Source: Candidatus Heimdallarchaeota archaeon
GTDB taxonomy: Archaea; Asgardarchaeota; Heimdallarchaeia; Heimdallarchaeales; Heimdallarchaeaceae
DNA length: 11,278 nt
Direction: 5' to 3'
Assembly: GCA_030668875.1 (NCBI GenBank)
Contig: DAOVER010000074.1
Span: 1 to 11,278, forward strand
Under the pieces are notes generated by a model. The model was not told where the DNA came from and made no database searches. It was given only the letters and a program-made list of their open reading frames with translations. The position numbers and the translations under genes were made by a program. Numbering within the stretch: position 1 is the stretch's first letter; every line of letters begins with the position of its first letter. Positions 139-9,868 of this stretch are shown here, piece by piece.

Positions 139-750
139 GTATTAACTGCCAGTCCATTCTGGATGGGCATTGGTATCATTGACGGAGTTGAACAAGATCT
201 AGACATCGAAACATTCAATGTTCGTGTTATTTCTGATATTTCAGCTGATTTAGCAGAATTCAAGGCTGGTAAATTAGACTGGACAAGTCTAACTGCCTTC
301 CCATCTGAAAGAAAGCAAATGCAAGCAGATCCAAGATTTGAAGTACAAAGTTTTGTTGGTGCATCAATGACTTTCATGTTCATAAACATGAGAAGACCTT
401 TCATAGGTGGTGTTGATAATTTCAAATATCTTACCGTTCCTGGTAAAGAGGAATACACCAAAGCAGTAGCAGTTCGTAAAGCAATGTGTTATGCAGTCGA
501 TCGTGACGAGATAAACCAGGTTATTCATGATGGTGAGTACTTAATCTCCCATAGTGTAATCTATCCATACACAGCTTACTACTACTACAATGACATTCTC
601 AAATACAACCGTGATCTTGGTGCAGCCGTAGAATGGTTAAATGCTGCAGGATACTTCCCAGACATTACTGAAGTTCATGTACCTCTTTTTGGTATCTTAG
701 CAGCTATCGGTGCAGCATCTTTCATAGTATTCTTTAAAAGAAAGAAATAA
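139..750 (+). pseudogene. 3' portion of a family-5 (OppA/DppA-like) ABC solute-binding protein gene, interrupted upstream by inserted DNA; C-terminal TM anchor plus basic tail
   Basis: ORF 163..750 matches residues 453-647 of the protein at 7925..9868 (about 161/195 identical by manual count). Homology extends upstream to VLTASPFW (nt 139, paralog V445), then breaks, with an in-frame TGA at 118-120. The ATG at 163 is an internal Met. Confidence 0.85.
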
Positions 751-880: not shown

Positions 881-1813
881 ATGCAAGAAGATGTAGAAGC
901 GGTTCTGGAGAGGCAAACTGTTATAGGAAAATTTCTAGACAGATTAAACTATCGTACACTTCGCCAGATATACACAATAATGAACAGTTTACTTAGTTCT
1001 ATAGACCGCTTTCTAAGTTCGAATGAAGATAGTTTACATAATATGAGATCAACTCTCCTATCTTCTATGTCACTTCTTGCTCGAACCTTTTATCAAACAT
1101 CAATAGTTGATTATCTACGGTCAGGAGGGAAAACTGAACGTGAGTTTAAAGAGGAAATCGAAAGAGCTTACTTGAAGGGAATGAATGAAAGGGAGCTAAT
1201 TGTTCAGAAGACGATAAATAATATGACCAGAGCAAATGAGTTGTTTAAGGTAAAAGAAGAAGTCAATAATAGGTGGCAAAATCTCTACTATCAAACCTCA
1301 CCAGAACTTAAAACAGAGCAAAACATTAGACAGAATCTATCCCTTGTTCTATCCAAACAAGATGAGTATAATGAATTATACAAGCCTAATATCTCAGAGT
1401 TAGAAGAATATCAAAACCAGAAAGATCTAATTAGCCAAGTCACTGATCTTTCCTACGAAGCAATAGATCTTGCAGATAAAGCTCAAATGACATTACACGA
1501 ACTATTAGATATCTGTATTAATCCTTTAGTTATGATTTTTGAGGACGAGATTAGTAGTGCAGAGAAAATCATAGCACAAATACAAATCGGAAATGAAAAA
1601 TCGAAGGATAAGTTAAGTGAAGATGAGATAGGGAAGTTGTGTGATGTGCTGTCTTGGGGGTTAGATGATATTAACAATTATGATGAATTGACTAGATTAG
1701 GAAAGGAATTAAGAAATGAGTTTGCCTCCTTGCTATCTGATTTTTTGGTTTATCTTGTTGATATTGACCTCGGTATTCAAGAACTAGAATCATTCCAATT
1801 AGAACGTGCATAA
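881..1813 (+). CDS. Hypothetical protein, 310 aa, predicted all-alpha/coiled-coil, soluble
   Basis: Long ORF with host-like composition, E/K/L/Q-rich with amphipathic helical patterning, no TM segment, no motif I recognise. Confidence 0.8.
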   Translation: MQEDVEAVLERQTVIGKFLDRLNYRTLRQIYTIMNSLLSSIDRFLSSNEDSLHNMRSTLLSSMSLLARTFYQTSIVDYLRSGGKTEREFKEEIERAYLKGMNERELIVQKTINNMTRANELFKVKEEVNNRWQNLYYQTSPELKTEQNIRQNLSLVLSKQDEYNELYKPNISELEEYQNQKDLISQVTDLSYEAIDLADKAQMTLHELLDICINPLVMIFEDEISSAEKIIAQIQIGNEKSKDKLSEDEIGKLCDVLSWGLDDINNYDELTRLGKELRNEFASLLSDFLVYLVDIDLGIQELESFQLERA

Positions 1814-1850: not shown

Positions 1851-2360
1851 ATGAACAATGAAGAAGTAATGAGCTACGATTTGTTCCTTAGCAGAGACTA
1901 CATGATTTTTTCAAGTGCTCACTTCGTAGTAGGAGAAAAATTTATCGAATCCTTGCATGGTCATAATTATAAAATCCTCATCAATATTTATGGCAATCAG
2001 GATGAGGAGAATATGATCCTAAATTTCTATGATATAAAGAAAGTACTCAAGCCCATAGTTGATAGATTGGATCATAAGGTTCTAATCCCAGAAGATAACA
2101 AACAACTTGAAATCACGGTATCAGGAAAACAAGTAATCATCAAGGTATCTAATTATGATAAAGAGTATGAGTTTCCCAAATCTGATGTTATTATACTCCC
2201 AATTGAGAATACAACAGTAGAAGAAATAAGCCGTTACTTAGCTGATAAATTAATGTGGAACAAGGAGATTAAAAAAGAAAATATTGATCAAGTTACTGTA
2301 ACTGTTTTTGAGTATGAGGGACAAGGAGTGACCTTTGAATTATTTCCTAGATACGAATAG
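1851..2360 (+). CDS. 6-pyruvoyl-tetrahydropterin synthase/QueD-fold protein with PTPS-III-type motif (E-x-L-HGH, no catalytic Cys)
   Basis: FSSAH...ESLHGHNY, LDHKVL, NTTVEEI and terminal VTVFE motifs of the PTPS/QueD family. Start uncertain: GTG 1806 overlaps the upstream gene; ATG 1851 or 1869 is more likely. Confidence 0.88.
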   Translation: MNNEEVMSYDLFLSRDYMIFSSAHFVVGEKFIESLHGHNYKILINIYGNQDEENMILNFYDIKKVLKPIVDRLDHKVLIPEDNKQLEITVSGKQVIIKVSNYDKEYEFPKSDVIILPIENTTVEEISRYLADKLMWNKEIKKENIDQVTVTVFEYEGQGVTFELFPRYE

Positions 2361-2368
2361 GGTTTAGA

Positions 2369-3130
2369 TTAAACAGCATAATTTGATATTCTATTGTTTT
2401 TGTTTAAACACCAATTGATAATTGATTTTGCTATAGTGAACTTCTTTATTTTTCTTTCTAATTGAACTTGATTAATTTTAGAGGCTTTGGAATACTTTCC
2501 AATAGATTCACTAAAATCATATCCAATTAGATGGATAGAGTGTGCTTCAAAGTAAGTCGCTAAACAAATAGCTCTGTCTCCATCAGTGAATCCTAAGAAA
2601 TTGTAGGAACCCTGTAATGGATTGCCTTGAGTTGTAAAAACAAATTCTCCATCACTAAATGCTGTAATGTTCTCTTCAACGGTTTCAATATTATCCTCAT
2701 GCACATGAACCAATACTGTTGCGCCTCTGTTCTGAGCTTCTATTTGATCCTCGATTCTCCCATCTAAATCTGTAACTATTAAATCGGGTATAACATTCTG
2801 TGAGATAAGATATGACGTTGCCCCATCTGAGGAAATCATGAAATCAGCTTTAGTTTTATCTGACTTCAAATACAAGTCAAGCTCAGATTCTAGATATATC
2901 CCAGGAGCGATAGTAAGGATGTTTTTTCCCTTGATTTTCTGTTCTAGAACTTCCTTAGATATATTGCTTGTAAACTTTTGCAATATCCTTTGAAGTGCAT
3001 TAAGATCCCTTTTTTCATCTATATCCAGATATTCACATATCAAAGGGTACCATTTCTCTAACCAAATGGATAAGCTAAATTTGCTTTTTTCTAGATGAGA
3101 AAATGGAGAATTTTTTGTATTAAACATCAT
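2369..3130 (-). CDS. mptE: 6-hydroxymethyl-7,8-dihydropterin pyrophosphokinase (archaeal MptE, DUF115-type)
   Basis: Motifs SDGAT..L, PDLIVTDLDG, HVHEDN (canonical HAHGDN), TTQ..P, NFLGFTDGDRA (canonical NFGGFTDGDRA), LIGYDF. Confidence 0.88.
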   Translation of the reverse strand: MMFNTKNSPFSHLEKSKFSLSIWLEKWYPLICEYLDIDEKRDLNALQRILQKFTSNISKEVLEQKIKGKNILTIAPGIYLESELDLYLKSDKTKADFMISSDGATSYLISQNVIPDLIVTDLDGRIEDQIEAQNRGATVLVHVHEDNIETVEENITAFSDGEFVFTTQGNPLQGSYNFLGFTDGDRAICLATYFEAHSIHLIGYDFSESIGKYSKASKINQVQLERKIKKFTIAKSIINWCLNKNNRISNYAV

Positions 3131-4922
3131 CTTCTAATTCCTCTATAGTTACCTTGCGCTTACTTTGAAGTTCTGTAAGTGCATTTTCATAACAGTCTTC
3201 AATATCTCTGAAGGTTACGAGACCCACAACTTTCAAAGCGTCTTCTTTTGAAACTACAGGCAGATATTCGATGTGATAATCCGTTAGTTTATCAAAAACC
3301 GTAGACAGCGTTTCATCTTCATTAACCGTTATAACATTTCTAGTCATTGCTTCATGGATATACATTTTACTTCTCGCAAATCCGCTCTGAAAATCTGTTG
3401 CACTAATTATACCTGCAAGATTCTTTTCATCATCTATAACAACGATAGCACTAATTCTGTGTAGTTTTAGTAAGGAGTAGGATTCTTCAAGTAAATCATA
3501 ATGTTTTACTCTTGGAAATTTTGTTTTCATGGAATCTTTAACGTTGAGTGTTTCTAAAAGATCGGTATATTGAATCTTTCTTCGCAGTAAAATTTCCTTA
3601 CTTTCAATTTGTCCTCTATAAAGACTGAAATCCATTGAAATAATGAACGCCATAGTATTTGATAAGATGATTGGGATGACTAAATTTGGGAAACCCACCA
3701 TTTCAAGAACTAAAATCATGGAAGCAATTGGGGTTTTTGTGGTGGCTGTGTGCATTGTTGACATACCAACAACAATCAATGCTATTGCCAAGGTGTTGTC
3801 TAAATTAAATATACATGAATACAGAAAACCAAGTGCTGCTCCAGTTACCAGTGTTGGACCCATAACGCCTGCACTATTACCAAAACCAATACAAGTGGAC
3901 GTTACAAGAATTTTACCCAAGAGTAGAACCAGAACAAATTGTATGCTGATTTCACCAAAGTTATCTATTAAATGGTTTATTGAGTTAAAACCTATGCCTT
4001 CTAAAACAACGCCTTCAGGCATATAGAATGTATCAACGAAGAAAACAACAATTGCAGTTAACATCATTCCTATTAAAGGCAAGAGAAAAGCTTTGAGGTA
4101 TTTTGAAACCCATTCTGAGAAAAGTTTGAACAATAATGAGAACATGATGCCTAGAAAACCAGCAATAATACCTAGTAACAAGAAATGTAGAGAACTGGAG
4201 AAGGATAACTCAAATTGAATATTTCCTAGTTCTAGATAGATTGGAGTAGCAGAAAGAAAACTAATCGAAGAGATCAAATTTAGAAGAGAATCATAAATAA
4301 TAAGAGAGATAGCACTAGCAAGGAGAGCTGGAAGAAATACAGTTTCATCTAAGTCACGCTTATATGGAACTTCTGTAGCAAAGACTGTTCCACCTAGAGG
4401 AGCACGAAATACTGCTGCTGTACATGCTGCTGCACCAATAGTAATTGCGTGCATTTCATCTTCTTGAGTCATGCCAAATTTATCACCTATAACGGCTGAA
4501 GCTGTACTACCTATTGTAACAGAAGGACCTTCTCGTCCAGCTGGTGCACTTACTCCAAGAGTCATGATACTAGCAAAGAATTTCGTGAAAATTGTTCTTG
4601 GTTTCATAGGAGTGGTAGTATTCTTATGAGATAGAACATGGGATATACCAGCACCTTTAACCTCATTAAAACCCGCATATATGAGTAGACTTGTGATTCC
4701 TCCAACAAGAGGGTATTTTATGTAAATGGGTATAACTGTCAACCAATTCTGAAGATTTACTACTAAACTAGTAAATATTGCCATAATGATTCCACTGATT
4801 ATTCCAATAAGAATTGAGAATGGAAACCATTTTCGAGAATATTTCCAATATTTTCTTATTTGTCTCTTGAATCGATTCCGTAGCTGCATAGAATCTGTAG
4901 GTTTAAGTTTTTCTTCTGCCAC
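3120..4922 (-). CDS. CLC-family chloride channel/H+:anion antiporter with C-terminal CBS pair
   Basis: GAGIS (GSGIP-like), GREGP, FRAPLGG.VFATE, GVMGP and LYRGQI motifs; many TM helices; two CBS domains (DSMKTKFPRV..., EAMTRNVITV...). GTG start; 3' end overlaps the mptE start by 11 nt. Confidence 0.95.
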   Translation of the reverse strand: MAEEKLKPTDSMQLRNRFKRQIRKYWKYSRKWFPFSILIGIISGIIMAIFTSLVVNLQNWLTVIPIYIKYPLVGGITSLLIYAGFNEVKGAGISHVLSHKNTTTPMKPRTIFTKFFASIMTLGVSAPAGREGPSVTIGSTASAVIGDKFGMTQEDEMHAITIGAAACTAAVFRAPLGGTVFATEVPYKRDLDETVFLPALLASAISLIIYDSLLNLISSISFLSATPIYLELGNIQFELSFSSSLHFLLLGIIAGFLGIMFSLLFKLFSEWVSKYLKAFLLPLIGMMLTAIVVFFVDTFYMPEGVVLEGIGFNSINHLIDNFGEISIQFVLVLLLGKILVTSTCIGFGNSAGVMGPTLVTGAALGFLYSCIFNLDNTLAIALIVVGMSTMHTATTKTPIASMILVLEMVGFPNLVIPIILSNTMAFIISMDFSLYRGQIESKEILLRRKIQYTDLLETLNVKDSMKTKFPRVKHYDLLEESYSLLKLHRISAIVVIDDEKNLAGIISATDFQSGFARSKMYIHEAMTRNVITVNEDETLSTVFDKLTDYHIEYLPVVSKEDALKVVGLVTFRDIEDCYENALTELQSKRKVTIEELEDDV

Positions 4923-7924: not shown

Positions 7925-9868
7925 TTATTTCTTTTTGCGGTATAATGCTACGAAAGCTGCTGCACCGATAGCTGCGAGGATACCAAACAATGGAACTGGT
8001 ACTCCAGGTATTGTAATTTCGTATCCAGCTGCGGTTAGCCATTCTACTGCGGCATCAAGATCGCGGTTGTATTTGATAATGTCGTTGTAGTAGTAGTATG
8101 CAGTAAATGGATAGATTACACTGTGGGAGATTAAGTACTCACCATCATGAATAACCTGGTTTATCTCGTCACGATCGACAGCATAGTTTATAGCTTTACG
8201 AACTGCACAACCCTTAGTGTATTCTTGTTTTCCAGGAGCGGTAAGATATTCAAAGTTATCAACACCACCGACGAAAGGTCTGCGCAAATTCATAAACATG
8301 AAGGTGAAGCTTGCAGTTAAGAAACTTTGTACTTCAAATCTTGGATCTGCTTGCATTTGCTTTCTTTCAGATGGGAAGGCAGTTAGACCAGTCCAGTCTA
8401 ATTTACCGGCTTTGAATTCTGCTAATTCTGCTGAAATATCAGGAATAACACGAACATTGAATGTTTCGATGTCTAGATCTTGCTCAGTTCCGTCAATGAT
8501 ACCAATGCCCATCCAGAATGGACTAGCTTGTAATACAGTAACGGAGTTCTTGATGTAATAATCTAACATATATTTTCCACAACCAAAGGCGGATGTAGAG
8601 TAATATACCCAAGCATCACTGTCTAGAATTCCAGTGTAGAAACCTGTACATTCGGCTCCACCAGATGTGTATGAGACAGTAGGATCTGAGGAATTCAAGA
8701 AGAATTCAGGTAGAATTTCCCAAGGTAGTCTGGCCCAAAAGTCGACGTATTGTTCAATTTCTGGGGTTAATGGGTTTCCATCAATTTCGATATGGAAGGA
8801 TAGCTCATCTACTGGGTCAACATATGCTGCTGAAATCCAGTTATGATAAGATGGACTTTCACTAACGATTGAGTTTGCCCATGCAAGATAGGTAAAGACT
8901 GCGTCTTTAGCTGTAACCTGTTGATTCTCACCATCACTAAATCTGTCTTCACCTACTTCATCTTTTAGACCATTCATTAATTGGGTAGTAGCAGGATCAA
9001 GTGCTGCAGAACTAGCATCTCTGCCAGTAACGTTGTATGATGGATTCCAGAATACTTTATCTCTCATAGTAAATTTGAAGTGGAATTCGTCAATTTGTTC
9101 CCAATCTGTAACTAATGAAGTTTTGAGTGGGGCCAAATCAGGACTCCAACCAACAATTGATTCAGCCATTAAGCCGAATATGAAAGAGCTGGATGTATCA
9201 TCTGTTTGTAGTGGGTTCAAATCTCTCCAGTTAGCGTCAGCTACACTGAATTCAGTAAGTGAGTCTTGACCTTCATGTAATCCATCGTATTCGATGTATG
9301 GTAAGGAATCAATTATTCCCCAACGACCATCATAACCGAGTGTGTTTGCCCATGTAGCAACGTATGACCTTGGTGCGAATAATGGTAGCATTGGAACGAT
9401 TTTGTCCATCATCAACTGCTGCCAATCATAGTAGTGTTGTTGTCTTTGTTCAAGATCAACTATGGTAACACCTTCAATTTGCATGTTCTCGCTTTTGTTT
9501 CCGTATGGCATTTCTTTGGTAATTCCGTACATGTTTAGTGAACCATCAGCACCATAACAATCGTACATGTCTGGTGAGGATCCACCGCCAGCTAAACCGA
9601 CTACACCTAGGTCAAAGTCTCTTGTTAATAGCAGAGTTCCAATGAACACTGTCCATTCTTCGACTTTAACTTCTACTTCAATTCCAATCTCTCTTAAGTA
9701 CTGAGCAATGTATAAACCATAGTCAGGTCGGACACCACCGCCGTTAGTCTTGAAGACTAAATTTGCGAGGGGTTCAACAGCTGCCTGTGAGTTATTTGCA
9801 TTAAATGCACTCATAGCTAGTAGGCTAGAAAGAATGAAGAGTGTAAAAATTACTGTTTTTTTCTTCAT
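7925..9868 (-). CDS. Family-5 (OppA/DppA/NikA-like) ABC solute-binding protein, apparently circularly permuted; N-terminal signal peptide, C-terminal TM anchor plus RKKK
   Basis: Family-5 motifs: LNPL..DD.SS, LVTDWE, FKFTMRD, VTAKDAVFT, FGCGKY, VRVIPD.SAELAEFKAGKLD, FMNLRRP, VRKAINYAVDRDEI, D...A..WL.AAGY, plus IAQYLREIGIEVEV and VPMLPLF. The last two normally lie at the C-terminus but are N-terminal here. Confidence 0.92.
   Translation of the reverse strand: MKKKTVIFTLFILSSLLAMSAFNANNSQAAVEPLANLVFKTNGGGVRPDYGLYIAQYLREIGIEVEVKVEEWTVFIGTLLLTRDFDLGVVGLAGGGSSPDMYDCYGADGSLNMYGITKEMPYGNKSENMQIEGVTIVDLEQRQQHYYDWQQLMMDKIVPMLPLFAPRSYVATWANTLGYDGRWGIIDSLPYIEYDGLHEGQDSLTEFSVADANWRDLNPLQTDDTSSSFIFGLMAESIVGWSPDLAPLKTSLVTDWEQIDEFHFKFTMRDKVFWNPSYNVTGRDASSAALDPATTQLMNGLKDEVGEDRFSDGENQQVTAKDAVFTYLAWANSIVSESPSYHNWISAAYVDPVDELSFHIEIDGNPLTPEIEQYVDFWARLPWEILPEFFLNSSDPTVSYTSGGAECTGFYTGILDSDAWVYYSTSAFGCGKYMLDYYIKNSVTVLQASPFWMGIGIIDGTEQDLDIETFNVRVIPDISAELAEFKAGKLDWTGLTAFPSERKQMQADPRFEVQSFLTASFTFMFMNLRRPFVGGVDNFEYLTAPGKQEYTKGCAVRKAINYAVDRDEINQVIHDGEYLISHSVIYPFTAYYYYNDIIKYNRDLDAAVEWLTAAGYEITIPGVPVPLFGILAAIGAAAFVALYRKKK

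What the first reader, a model, noticed from the sequence alone, without database searches (positions are those of the whole stretch)
1851..3130. PTPS-III-type enzyme next to MptE: a FolB/MptD-independent pterin route
The PTPS/QueD homologue has IESLHGH (ESLHGH at nt 1947-1964). The catalytic Cys of QueD (C-x3-HGH) is replaced by Ile, and the Glu of the PTPS-III signature (E-x2-HGH) is present. PTPS-III enzymes cleave dihydroneopterin triphosphate directly to 6-hydroxymethyl-dihydropterin, the substrate of MptE. The two genes converge with only 8 nt between stops. This suggests a hybrid pathway: a step best known from bacteria and apicomplexans feeding the archaeal kinase, for folate or methanopterin-like C1 carriers. 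It would also mean the gene is probably not queD for archaeosine synthesis.
Basis: partly seen in the sequence, partly recalled or inferred. Interest (0 to 1): 0.6.

Follow-up and report, generated by a model that had tools for sequence, protein, structure and literature searches.

The report
Glu-type pterin synthase beside MptE
A Heimdall-group (Asgard) archaeon carries, tail-to-tail with its archaeal pterin kinase MptE, a cysteine-free, glutamate-type copy of the QueD/PTPS enzyme that most likely replaces the missing dihydroneopterin aldolase in folate synthesis; this bypass is already known from malaria parasites, bacteria and Pyrococcus, so it is a well-supported but ordinary new example that databases mislabel as QueD.

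Summary
The 169-aa PTPS-family gene (1851-2360, +) reads F-I-E-S-L-H-G-H, with ESLHGH at 1947-1964. It converges on an MptE gene (2369-3130, -) with 8 nt between the stops.

- The protein contains no cysteine, and its Glu33 aligns with the catalytic Glu of Plasmodium PTPS.
- The same genome has a separate Cys-type queD inside a queE-mptA-DUF366-queD-queC cluster.
- The genome has a FolP-type DHPS but no FolB, MptD, FolK or FolE was found.
- The PTPS-MptE pair is conserved in 21 of 24 genomes of the genus, in three other families of the order, in another Heimdall lineage and in a Bathyarchaeia genome.
- Across the 40 genomes of the order, Glu-type PTPS and a FolE-FolB-FolK cluster never occur together.

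Two corrections apply. The only GTP cyclohydrolase here is MptA-type, so the substrate may be a dihydroneopterin monophosphate or cyclic phosphate rather than the triphosphate. The "hybrid" route is already published for archaea (P. furiosus PF1278).

No beta-RFAP synthase was found, so the end product is probably folate rather than methanopterin.

This scan has noted the same pair in at least nine other genomes. Verdict: new member of a known kind, modest interest. No enzyme activity was tested.

The parts
1851..2360 (+). Glu-type (PTPS-III-like) COG0720/PTPS-family gene, 169 aa, no cysteine in the whole protein
   Evidence: PF01242 at 69.8 bits. Below the NCBIfam QueD equivalog cut-off (64 vs 89.25). 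AF2 model pLDDT 93. Best structural match is Plasmodium PTPS, TM 0.87-0.90.
1947..1964 (+). Active-site motif E33-S-L-H36-G-H38 (ExxHGH). Ile32 (1944-1946) occupies the place of the QueD Cys.
   Evidence: Read directly. E33 aligns with Glu37/38 of P. vivax / P. falciparum PTPS in 'FRETLHGH'. H24, H36 and H38 are invariant in the alignments.
2361..2368 (.). 8-nt spacer between the two convergent stop codons
   Evidence: In relatives the tail-to-tail spacer is -4 to 19 nt.
2369..3130 (-). MptE-type 6-hydroxymethyl-7,8-dihydropterin pyrophosphokinase gene, 253 aa
   Evidence: PF01973 at 67.7 bits. phmmer E 2.5e-26 over residues 25-244 to the solved HPPK 8sd5. It is the only MptE-like gene in the genome, and no FolK was found.
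3120..4922 (-). ClC channel/transporter with two CBS domains. Its stop overlaps the MptE start by 11 nt. It is a conserved neighbour in the genus, given here as context; no link to the pathway is shown.
   Evidence: PF00654 and PF00571. Conserved upstream of mptE in relatives.
881..1813 (+). 310-aa ORF of unknown family, 37 nt upstream of the PTPS gene on the same strand. It is conserved in that position throughout the genus, given here as context; function unknown.
   Evidence: No Pfam or NCBIfam hit. 70-97% identical and syntenic in all genus loci. Atlas search blank.

Best explanation
The window holds the two-gene pterin-branch module of a Heimdallarchaeial folate pathway. The Glu-type PTPS paralogue probably uses its Zn site (His24/36/38) and Glu33 as the base to cleave the side chain of a 7,8-dihydroneopterin phosphate ester. 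That ester would be H2NTP, or more likely here the monophosphate or cyclic phosphate made by MptA with or without the MptB-like protein. The product, 6-hydroxymethyl-7,8-dihydropterin, would stand in for the FolB/MptD step. MptE would then pyrophosphorylate it, and the FolP-type DHPS encoded elsewhere (next to a CofE-like glutamate ligase) would couple it to pABA. A separate Cys-type paralogue in the queE-mptA-DUF366-queD-queC cluster would make CPH4 for archaeosine. Shown here: family membership, motif, gene inventory, linkage and phyletic complementarity. Inferred: the reaction, the substrate and folate as the end product.
For: Motif and residues:
- ExxHGH is present with Ile in place of the QueD Cys, and the protein has no Cys at all.
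- E33 aligns with the Glu of PfPTPS 'FRETLH'. Mutating that Glu abolishes 6-HMDP formation (PMC2229834).
- ExxHGH is the published PTPS-III signature (PMC5041015 and PMC5445326).

Fold:
- The model has pLDDT 93 and superposes on Plasmodium PTPS at TM 0.87-0.90, rmsd 1.6 A.

Division of labour:
- A second paralogue with K-C-A-R-V-HGH sits in a queE-mptA-DUF366-queD-queC cluster.
- The same holds in the five relatives I fetched.

Gene inventory of the 92%-complete genome:
- Found: MptA, an MptB-like HD protein, DHPS above the equivalog cut-off, ThyX and SHMT.
- Not found: FolB, MptD, FolE, FolK and beta-RFAP synthase.

Linkage:
- The PTPS and MptE genes lie tail-to-tail, -4 to 19 nt apart, in 21 of 24 genus genomes.
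- The pair is also linked in three other families, in Heimdall HM7_B34 and in a Bathyarchaeia MAG, twice in a co-directional arrangement.

Phyletic complementarity across the 40 genomes of the order:
- 31 genomes have a Glu-bearing MptE-linked PTPS.
- 5 have a FolE-FolB-FolK cluster.
- None has both.

Tree:
- The MptE-linked archaeal proteins group apart from the preQ0-cluster paralogues (SH-aLRT 85-94).

MptE:
- E 2.5e-26 to the solved HPPK 8sd5.
Against: - No activity data exist for this protein or any close relative.
- The strong resemblance to Plasmodium PTPS is not function-specific. The Cys-type paralogue matches the same structures almost as well (65.9-68.2 vs 71.3 bits). The assignment therefore rests on one residue plus genomic context.
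- PfPTPS also makes 6-pyruvoyl-tetrahydropterin, so a second product is possible.
- The two genes are convergent and so are not co-transcribed.
- The MptB-like protein is below its family cut-off (142 vs 172 bits).
- The genome is a 99-contig MAG, so absences are not proof.
- No DHFR (FolA) was found, and pABA synthesis and FolC were not examined, so the downstream pathway is incomplete on paper.
- The tree branches that define the MptE-linked clade have only SH-aLRT 82-89 from a quick search.
Confidence: 0.8

Rival explanations
1. The gene is simply a second QueD (CPH4 synthase) for archaeosine, as databases annotate it, and its position next to mptE is incidental.
For: Source names for orthologues include '6-carboxytetrahydropterin synthase QueD'. 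It is 42% identical to the genome's Cys-type paralogue. TIGR03367 QueD gives 64 bits.
Against: The QueD motif CxxxHGH is not met and the protein has no Cys at all. It scores below the QueD equivalog cut-off of 89.25. A canonical queD already sits in the preQ0 cluster. The linkage to mptE is conserved across families and phyla, and the gene is never linked to queC or queE.
Confidence: 0.04
2. It is a Glu-type lyase of the same kind but feeds a non-folate pterin, either a methanopterin-like or other modified C1 carrier or a biopterin-like pterin through 6-pyruvoyl-tetrahydropterin.
For: MptA, the MptB-like protein and MptE are the methanopterin-pathway enzymes of methanogens. PfPTPS gives two products. 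No FolA-type DHFR was found.
Against: No beta-RFAP synthase was found. The DHPS scores above the FolP equivalog cut-off (196.8 vs 162.6) and abuts a CofE-like glutamate ligase in every genus genome where the DHPS locus was fetched. ThyX and SHMT, which use folate-type carriers, are present. In genus g3 of the order the same module goes with a canonical FolE.
Confidence: 0.1
3. The protein is a catalytically different COG0720 subfamily (PTPS-IV, PTPS-V or another) with an unrelated role. The Glu is coincidental.
For: COG0720 holds at least six functional classes that are hard to separate by sequence. In family f4 a third paralogue type lacking both Cys and Glu lies next to mptA (L125, L126).
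Against: The PTPS-IV signature FGPAQ is absent from the sequence (with the signature taken). The Glu is present in every orthologue examined except one database relative, which has Asp. Context and phyletic pattern point to the FolB step.
Confidence: 0.05

Closest known systems
Plasmodium falciparum / P. vivax PTPS (PTPS-III prototype; PDB 1Y13, 2A0S)
   Same: It has the same long-form T-fold with the extra beta-hairpin insert: TM 0.87-0.90, rmsd 1.6 A, phmmer E about 1e-18 over the full length. The Zn His triad is the same. The catalytic Glu is at the identical alignment position (FRETLHGH vs FIESLHGH). Both organisms lack a dihydroneopterin aldolase.
   Different: Sequence identity is only about 27-38%. 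The partner kinase here is MptE, not a FolK-type PPPK-DHPS fusion. The upstream cyclohydrolase is MptA-type, so the substrate may not be H2NTP. The resemblance is shared by the genome's Cys-type QueD paralogue, so it reflects a common architecture and not the function.
Archaeal PTPS-III/VI, e.g. Pyrococcus furiosus PF1278 ('dihydroneopterin monophosphate aldolase'), working with MptE/COG1634 (de Crecy-Lagard et al. 2012, as summarised in PMC5041015)
   Same: It is an archaeal COG0720 paralogue beside a separate PTPS-I/QueD. It is assigned to the pterin branch in place of MptD/FolB, and its probable substrate is a monophosphate.
   Different: I could not obtain the PF1278 sequence or the 2012 paper, so orthology with the Heimdall/Bathyarchaeia MptE-linked clade is untested. 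Whether the published work already shows the tail-to-tail mptE linkage is unknown to me.
Bacterial PTPS-III and bifunctional PTPS-I/III (CExxHGH) enzymes
   Same: They share the ExxHGH or CExxHGH motifs. Bacterial long-form relatives (Planctomycetota, Gemmatimonadota, Chloroflexota and others, 31-42% identity) sometimes lie next to DHPS or FolE2.
   Different: In the tree the bacterial proteins form a separate group. Their partner is FolK/FolP, not MptE. The window protein has lost the Cys that most of them keep.
E. coli QueD (PTPS-I; PDB 4NTK)
   Same: It has the same superfamily fold, Zn His triad and Asp-His dyad.
   Different: It is a short form (121 aa), with TM to the model of only 0.55. 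It has CxxxHGH with an essential Cys and no Glu. It makes CPH4 for queuosine.
Methanocaldococcus jannaschii MptA-MptB-MptD-MptE route
   Same: MptA-type cyclohydrolase, an MptB-like HD protein and MptE are all present.
   Different: MptD (PF04038) was not found in this genome. Among the 40 genomes it appears in only one, on a 1.9-kb contig. The Glu-type PTPS takes its place, and the end product is probably folate, not methanopterin.

Membership tests
PTPS-III (Glu-type COG0720) | PTPS/QueD T-fold domain with three Zn-binding His | tested here: met
   PF01242 at 69.8 bits. H24, H36 and H38 are invariant. Model pLDDT 93, TM 0.87-0.90 to 2A0S/1Y13.
PTPS-III (Glu-type COG0720) | ExxHGH signature, with the Glu at the position of PfPTPS Glu38 | tested here: met
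   E33-S-L-H-G-H aligned to R-E-T-L-H-G-H of 2a0s/1y13. Signature as given in PMC5041015 and PMC5445326.
PTPS-III (Glu-type COG0720) | Genome lacks FolB (and here MptD) while keeping the rest of the pterin branch | tested here: met
   PF02152 and PF04038 gave no match in the own genome. DHPS and MptE are present. Across the order, FolB and Glu-type PTPS never co-occur. Caveat: the MAG is 92% complete.
PTPS-III (Glu-type COG0720) | Physical clustering with folate or pterin-branch genes | tested here: met
   The pair with mptE is conserved in 21 of 24 genus genomes and in other families and phyla.
PTPS-III (Glu-type COG0720) | Produces 6-hydroxymethyl-7,8-dihydropterin; complements folB | not testable with these tools
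   Needs an enzyme assay or complementation.
QueD / PTPS-I | CxxxHGH with a catalytic Cys | tested here: not met
   Ile32 occupies that position and the protein has no Cys.
QueD / PTPS-I | Scores above the NCBIfam QueD equivalog cut-off; clusters with queC/queE | tested here: not met
   TIGR03367 gives 64 bits against a cut-off of 89.25. queC and queE lie beside the other paralogue on contig C68. That Cys-type paralogue also scores below the cut-off (76.8 bits).
PTPS-II (biopterin) | CxxxxxHGH | tested here: not met
   Position -6 from His36 is Lys30.
PTPS-IV | FGPAQ signature | tested here: not met
   The motif is absent from the 169-aa sequence (signature from PMC5445326).
MptE (archaeal HPPK, COG1634/PF01973) | MptE-like domain above the Pfam cut-off and full-length similarity to a characterised or solved MptE | tested here: met
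   PF01973 at 67.7 bits against 34.6. 8sd5 '6-hydroxymethyl-7,8-dihydropterin pyrophosphokinase' at E 2.5e-26 over residues 25-244, sharing the IPDxIVxDLDG, VHxHxDN and FTDGDR stretches.
MptE (archaeal HPPK, COG1634/PF01973) | Replaces FolK in the genome | tested here: met
   PF01288 was not found in the own genome or in any genome of genera g1-g4.
MptE (archaeal HPPK, COG1634/PF01973) | HPPK activity | not testable with these tools
   Needs an assay.

The most novel reading that the evidence does not exclude
The MptE-linked archaeal proteins (Heimdallarchaeia, Bathyarchaeia) may be a COG0720 lineage of their own. On this reading it arose from a bifunctional CExxHGH ancestor and repeatedly lost the Cys once a dedicated queD was present. 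It would be specialised for the MptA/MptB product (dihydroneopterin cyclic phosphate or monophosphate) rather than H2NTP. That would make it a functional analogue of Plasmodium/bacterial PTPS-III and of PF1278, not an orthologue. The apicomplexan enzyme would then belong to the same long-form architecture as these archaeal proteins.
Probability: 0.3. Interest if true: 0.45.

Novelty: new member of a known kind. Interest (0 to 1): 0.3.

Why it matters
It corrects a systematic mis-annotation: public records call these proteins QueD or generic PTPS. It also closes the FolB/MptD gap in metabolic reconstructions of Heimdallarchaeia, the archaeal group nearest to eukaryotes. The reconstruction predicts a complete MptA, Glu-PTPS, MptE, DHPS pterin branch leading to folate. 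The order also gives a clean natural example of non-orthologous displacement. One configuration is MptA or FolE with Glu-PTPS and MptE. The other is a bacterial-type FolE-FolB-FolK cluster. The two are never found together. It does not reveal a new kind of enzyme or pathway.

Tried and rejected
1. I first took the top PDB matches to Plasmodium PTPS-III as evidence for function. I rejected this because the Cys-type queD paralogue matches the same entries almost equally well. The similarity reflects the long-form architecture.
2. I tried to read de Crecy-Lagard et al. 2012 (PMC3500442), Phillips et al. 2012 (PMC3262898) and de Crecy-Lagard 2014 (PMC4151868). None is held, so statements about PF1278 rest on the summary in PMC5041015.
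3. I tried to bring Pyrococcus PF1278 into the comparison through the search for related loci. The first alignment was too diverse. The second returned 80 loci with no Thermococcales among them. Placement relative to PF1278 and to Plasmodium in a tree could not be done.
4. The literature search for the enzyme name and EC number returned only unrelated 'MptD' papers. The search for MptE returned nothing useful.
5. The Asgard folate paper (PMC9931769) covers folate-dependent enzymes, not the pterin branch.
6. MptD: a 15-bit match inside a 353-aa ORF was dismissed as noise.
7. The upstream 310-aa ORF has no Pfam, NCBIfam or Atlas lead.
8. I considered methanopterin as the end product and rejected it as less likely, because no beta-RFAP synthase was found and the DHPS is FolP-type.

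Full report
WHAT IS THERE

The window is contig C26 of a 3.23-Mb, 99-contig genome bin that is 92% complete and 4% contaminated. Close homologues carry the names Candidatus Heimdallarchaeaceae / Heimdallarchaeota, including AB_125.

The ORF with an ATG at 1851 and a TAG at 2358-2360 encodes 169 aa of the PTPS/QueD family: PF01242 at 69.8 bits, TIGR00039 at 70.9 bits, and QueD equivalog TIGR03367 at 64 bits, which is below its cut-off of 89.25. Codons 1944-1964 read I-E-S-L-H-G-H. The protein contains no cysteine.

On the other strand, 2369-3130 encodes a 253-aa MptE-like protein (PF01973 at 67.7 bits). It matches the solved 6-hydroxymethyl-7,8-dihydropterin pyrophosphokinase 8sd5 at E 2.5e-26 over nearly its full length. 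The stops are 8 nt apart.

THE ENZYME

Against PDB sequences the best matches are P. vivax and P. falciparum PTPS at 71 and 70 bits over the full length. Glu33 aligns to the Glu of 'FRETLHGH'. Short-form QueD and mammalian PTPS score only 25-30 bits.

An AlphaFold2 model built from 62 sequences has pLDDT 93. It superposes on those Plasmodium structures at TM 0.87-0.90 and rmsd 1.6 A, against TM of about 0.55 for E. coli QueD.

Mutagenesis of the Plasmodium enzyme showed that this Glu is required for making 6-hydroxymethyl-dihydropterin, and that Glu-to-Cys restores conventional PTPS chemistry (PMC2229834). ExxHGH is the published PTPS-III signature, CxxxHGH that of QueD, CxxxxxHGH that of PTPS-II and FGPAQ that of PTPS-IV (PMC5041015 and PMC5445326). 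Only the first fits this protein.

His24, His36, His38, Glu124 and Glu154 are invariant in both alignments. His75 is invariant and Asp74 nearly invariant (90% or more) in the 62-sequence family alignment.

One control matters. The genome's other paralogue, which is Cys-type, matches the same Plasmodium entries at 65.9-68.2 bits. The Plasmodium likeness therefore reflects a shared long-form architecture. It does not by itself indicate function.

DIVISION OF LABOUR IN THE GENOME

A second PF01242 gene lies on contig C68. It reads K-C-A-R-V-H-G-H and sits in the order queE, mptA, DUF366, queD, queC. That is a complete preQ0 cluster. The same cluster holds the Cys-type copy in the five relatives I fetched. 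The window gene is therefore not needed as queD.

PATHWAY INVENTORY OF THE OWN GENOME

Present:
- One FolE2/MptA-family cyclohydrolase, classed as MptA (TIGR00294 at 264 bits against a cut-off of 220; FolE2 model at 165 against 215).
- A TIGR00295-like HD protein, MptB-like (142 bits, below the 172 cut-off). That TIGR00295 is the MptB family is from my memory.
- One MptE.
- One DHPS above the FolP equivalog cut-off (196.8 against 162.6).
- A CofE-like F420_ligase-family gene directly preceding the DHPS.
- ThyX and SHMT.

Not found:
- FolB.
- MptD (only a 15-bit chance match).
- FolE.
- FolK.
- Beta-RFAP synthase.
- ThyA.
- FolA-type DHFR.

The aldolase step thus has no candidate other than the Glu-type PTPS. 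The lack of RFAP synthase, together with a FolP-type DHPS, points to folate rather than methanopterin.

CONSERVATION OF THE PAIR

The window protein finds an orthologue in all 23 other genomes of the genus, at 63-93% identity, and each of those genomes also has the Cys-type copy.

In 21 of the 24 genus genomes, mptE lies tail-to-tail with the PTPS gene, with -4 to 14 nt between the stops. In two more it lies 2.1 and 4.5 kb downstream on the same contig.

In three other families of the order the pair is also linked, in varied forms:
- convergent with 4-19 nt between stops;
- convergent with about 640 nt between stops;
- co-directional with 117 or 746 nt between genes.

A Heimdall MAG of another lineage (L041) and a Bathyarchaeia MAG (L042) show the same tail-to-tail pair.

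Every MptE-linked copy carries the Glu. Within the genus, position -4 is I/F/Y/L/N/E. In families f2 and f4, in L041 and in L042 it is Cys (CExxHGH, the published bifunctional I/III motif). In genus g3 it is I or V.

PHYLETIC PATTERN ACROSS THE 40 GENOMES OF THE ORDER

- Genera g1, g2 and g4 combine an MptA-family cyclohydrolase with Glu-bearing PTPS and MptE.
- Genus g3 combines canonical FolE with Glu-type PTPS and MptE.
- Five genomes of g6, g7 and g9 instead carry an adjacent FolE-FolB-FolK cluster and no Glu-type PTPS.
- No genome has both solutions.
- MptD appears once, on a 1.9-kb contig of G030.
- DHPS is present in 30 of the 31 genomes with the Glu-bearing, MptE-linked PTPS.

These genomes are related, so the pattern amounts to a few independent events rather than a statistical test. 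It is still the pattern expected for non-orthologous displacement of FolB/FolK by PTPS-III/MptE.

The g3 case shows that the module also works downstream of a cyclohydrolase that makes H2NTP. In the window's own genus the cyclohydrolase is MptA-type. The substrate may then be the cyclic phosphate or monophosphate, as suggested for archaeal PTPS-III in PMC5041015.

TREE

The tree has 58 rows and uses IQ-TREE quick search with LG+C20, rooted on E. coli QueD. The long-form proteins fall into three groups:
- an archaeal group tied to preQ0 clusters, with C-only and CE motifs (SH-aLRT 94);
- an archaeal MptE-linked group, with CE and E-only motifs (SH-aLRT 85-89), in which the window protein sits in an E-only subclade (82; the genus clade itself 98);
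- a bacterial group (94) with CE and E-only members, a few of them next to DHPS or FolE2.

This fits descent of the window gene from a CE-type ancestor with later loss of the Cys. Support is moderate. Three divergent paralogues lacking both residues (L125, L126, L128) sit on very long branches inside the second group, and their placement should not be trusted.

WHAT IS KNOWN ALREADY

The PTPS-III bypass is established in Plasmodium and in bacteria. Archaeal PTPS-III/VI enzymes, with P. furiosus PF1278 named, are described as folate or methanopterin pterin-branch enzymes from the study that also identified MptD and MptE (PMC5041015).

The Asgard folate paper I could read deals with folate-using enzymes only. 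I found no description of this module in Asgard archaea.

Public records name the orthologues QueD or generic PTPS.

This scan's notes list the same PTPS-III/MptE pair from at least nine other genomes, with no follow-up shown for any of them.

VERDICT

The finding is real and the reading is very probably right. It is a new member of a known kind. The useful additions here are:
- the separate queD cluster;
- the MptA-type upstream enzyme and what it implies for the substrate;
- the mutually exclusive distribution with FolB-FolK;
- the depth of conservation of the tail-to-tail pair;
- the warning that the Plasmodium resemblance does not discriminate function.

Noticed in passing
L001:833-1462 (+) = G000 contig C68, between mptA and queD: A DUF366 (PF04017, 182 bits) gene sits between mptA and queD in the queE-mptA-DUF366-queD-queC cluster. 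The same position is kept in the five genus relatives fetched and in a 'Methanobacteriota' MAG (L048). Its only solved relative is the hypothetical protein 2ddz, with faint similarity to biotin-protein ligases. It is a candidate unassigned component of archaeal preQ0/archaeosine synthesis. I found no paper on it.
   Followed up: partly
L004:636-1451 (+) and L004:1372-2295 (+) = G000 contig C36: A CofE-like F420_ligase-family gene directly precedes and overlaps the FolP-type DHPS gene. It scores TIGR01916 at 177.3 against a cut-off of 180.65, and the 'folate gamma-glutamate ligase' model TIGR04132 at 122 bits. The pair is conserved in every genus genome where the DHPS locus was fetched, and in G034. 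It may be the folate glutamylation enzyme (a FolC substitute), like the COG1478 member CT611 listed under tetrahydrofolate synthesis in PMC5041015.
   Followed up: partly
window 881-1813 (+): A 310-aa ORF with no Pfam, NCBIfam or Atlas match lies 37 nt upstream of the PTPS gene on the same strand. It is syntenic and 70-97% identical in all genus genomes but was not detected next to the PTPS gene in the other families. Function unknown.
   Followed up: partly
window 3120-4922 (-): A ClC-type chloride channel/antiporter with a C-terminal CBS pair has a stop that overlaps the mptE start by 11 nt, which suggests co-transcription. The gene is conserved upstream of mptE in most genus genomes. In several relatives only fragments of it matched in this interval.
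   Followed up: no
G036:C549:17-2065; also G037:C599, G038:C412, G039:C33: Some genera of the same Heimdall order carry a compact bacterial-type FolK-FolB-(gap)-FolE cluster instead of the PTPS/MptE module. This probably reflects a horizontal acquisition.
   Followed up: partly
L125, L126 (G026:C76, G030:C150): In family f4 a third COG0720 paralogue type lacking both Cys and Glu (TFSLHGH, RPRLHGH) lies next to mptA, while the MptE-linked copy there is CExxHGH. It may correspond to the FolE2-associated PTPS-IV class, but this was not checked.
   Followed up: no
window 163-750 (+) and 7925-9868 (-): The 195-aa SBP_bac_5 ORF at 163-750 is a near-copy of the C-terminal part of the 647-aa binding protein at 7925-9868. 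Earlier notes of this scan cover the binding protein and the transposon end at 1-140.
   Followed up: no
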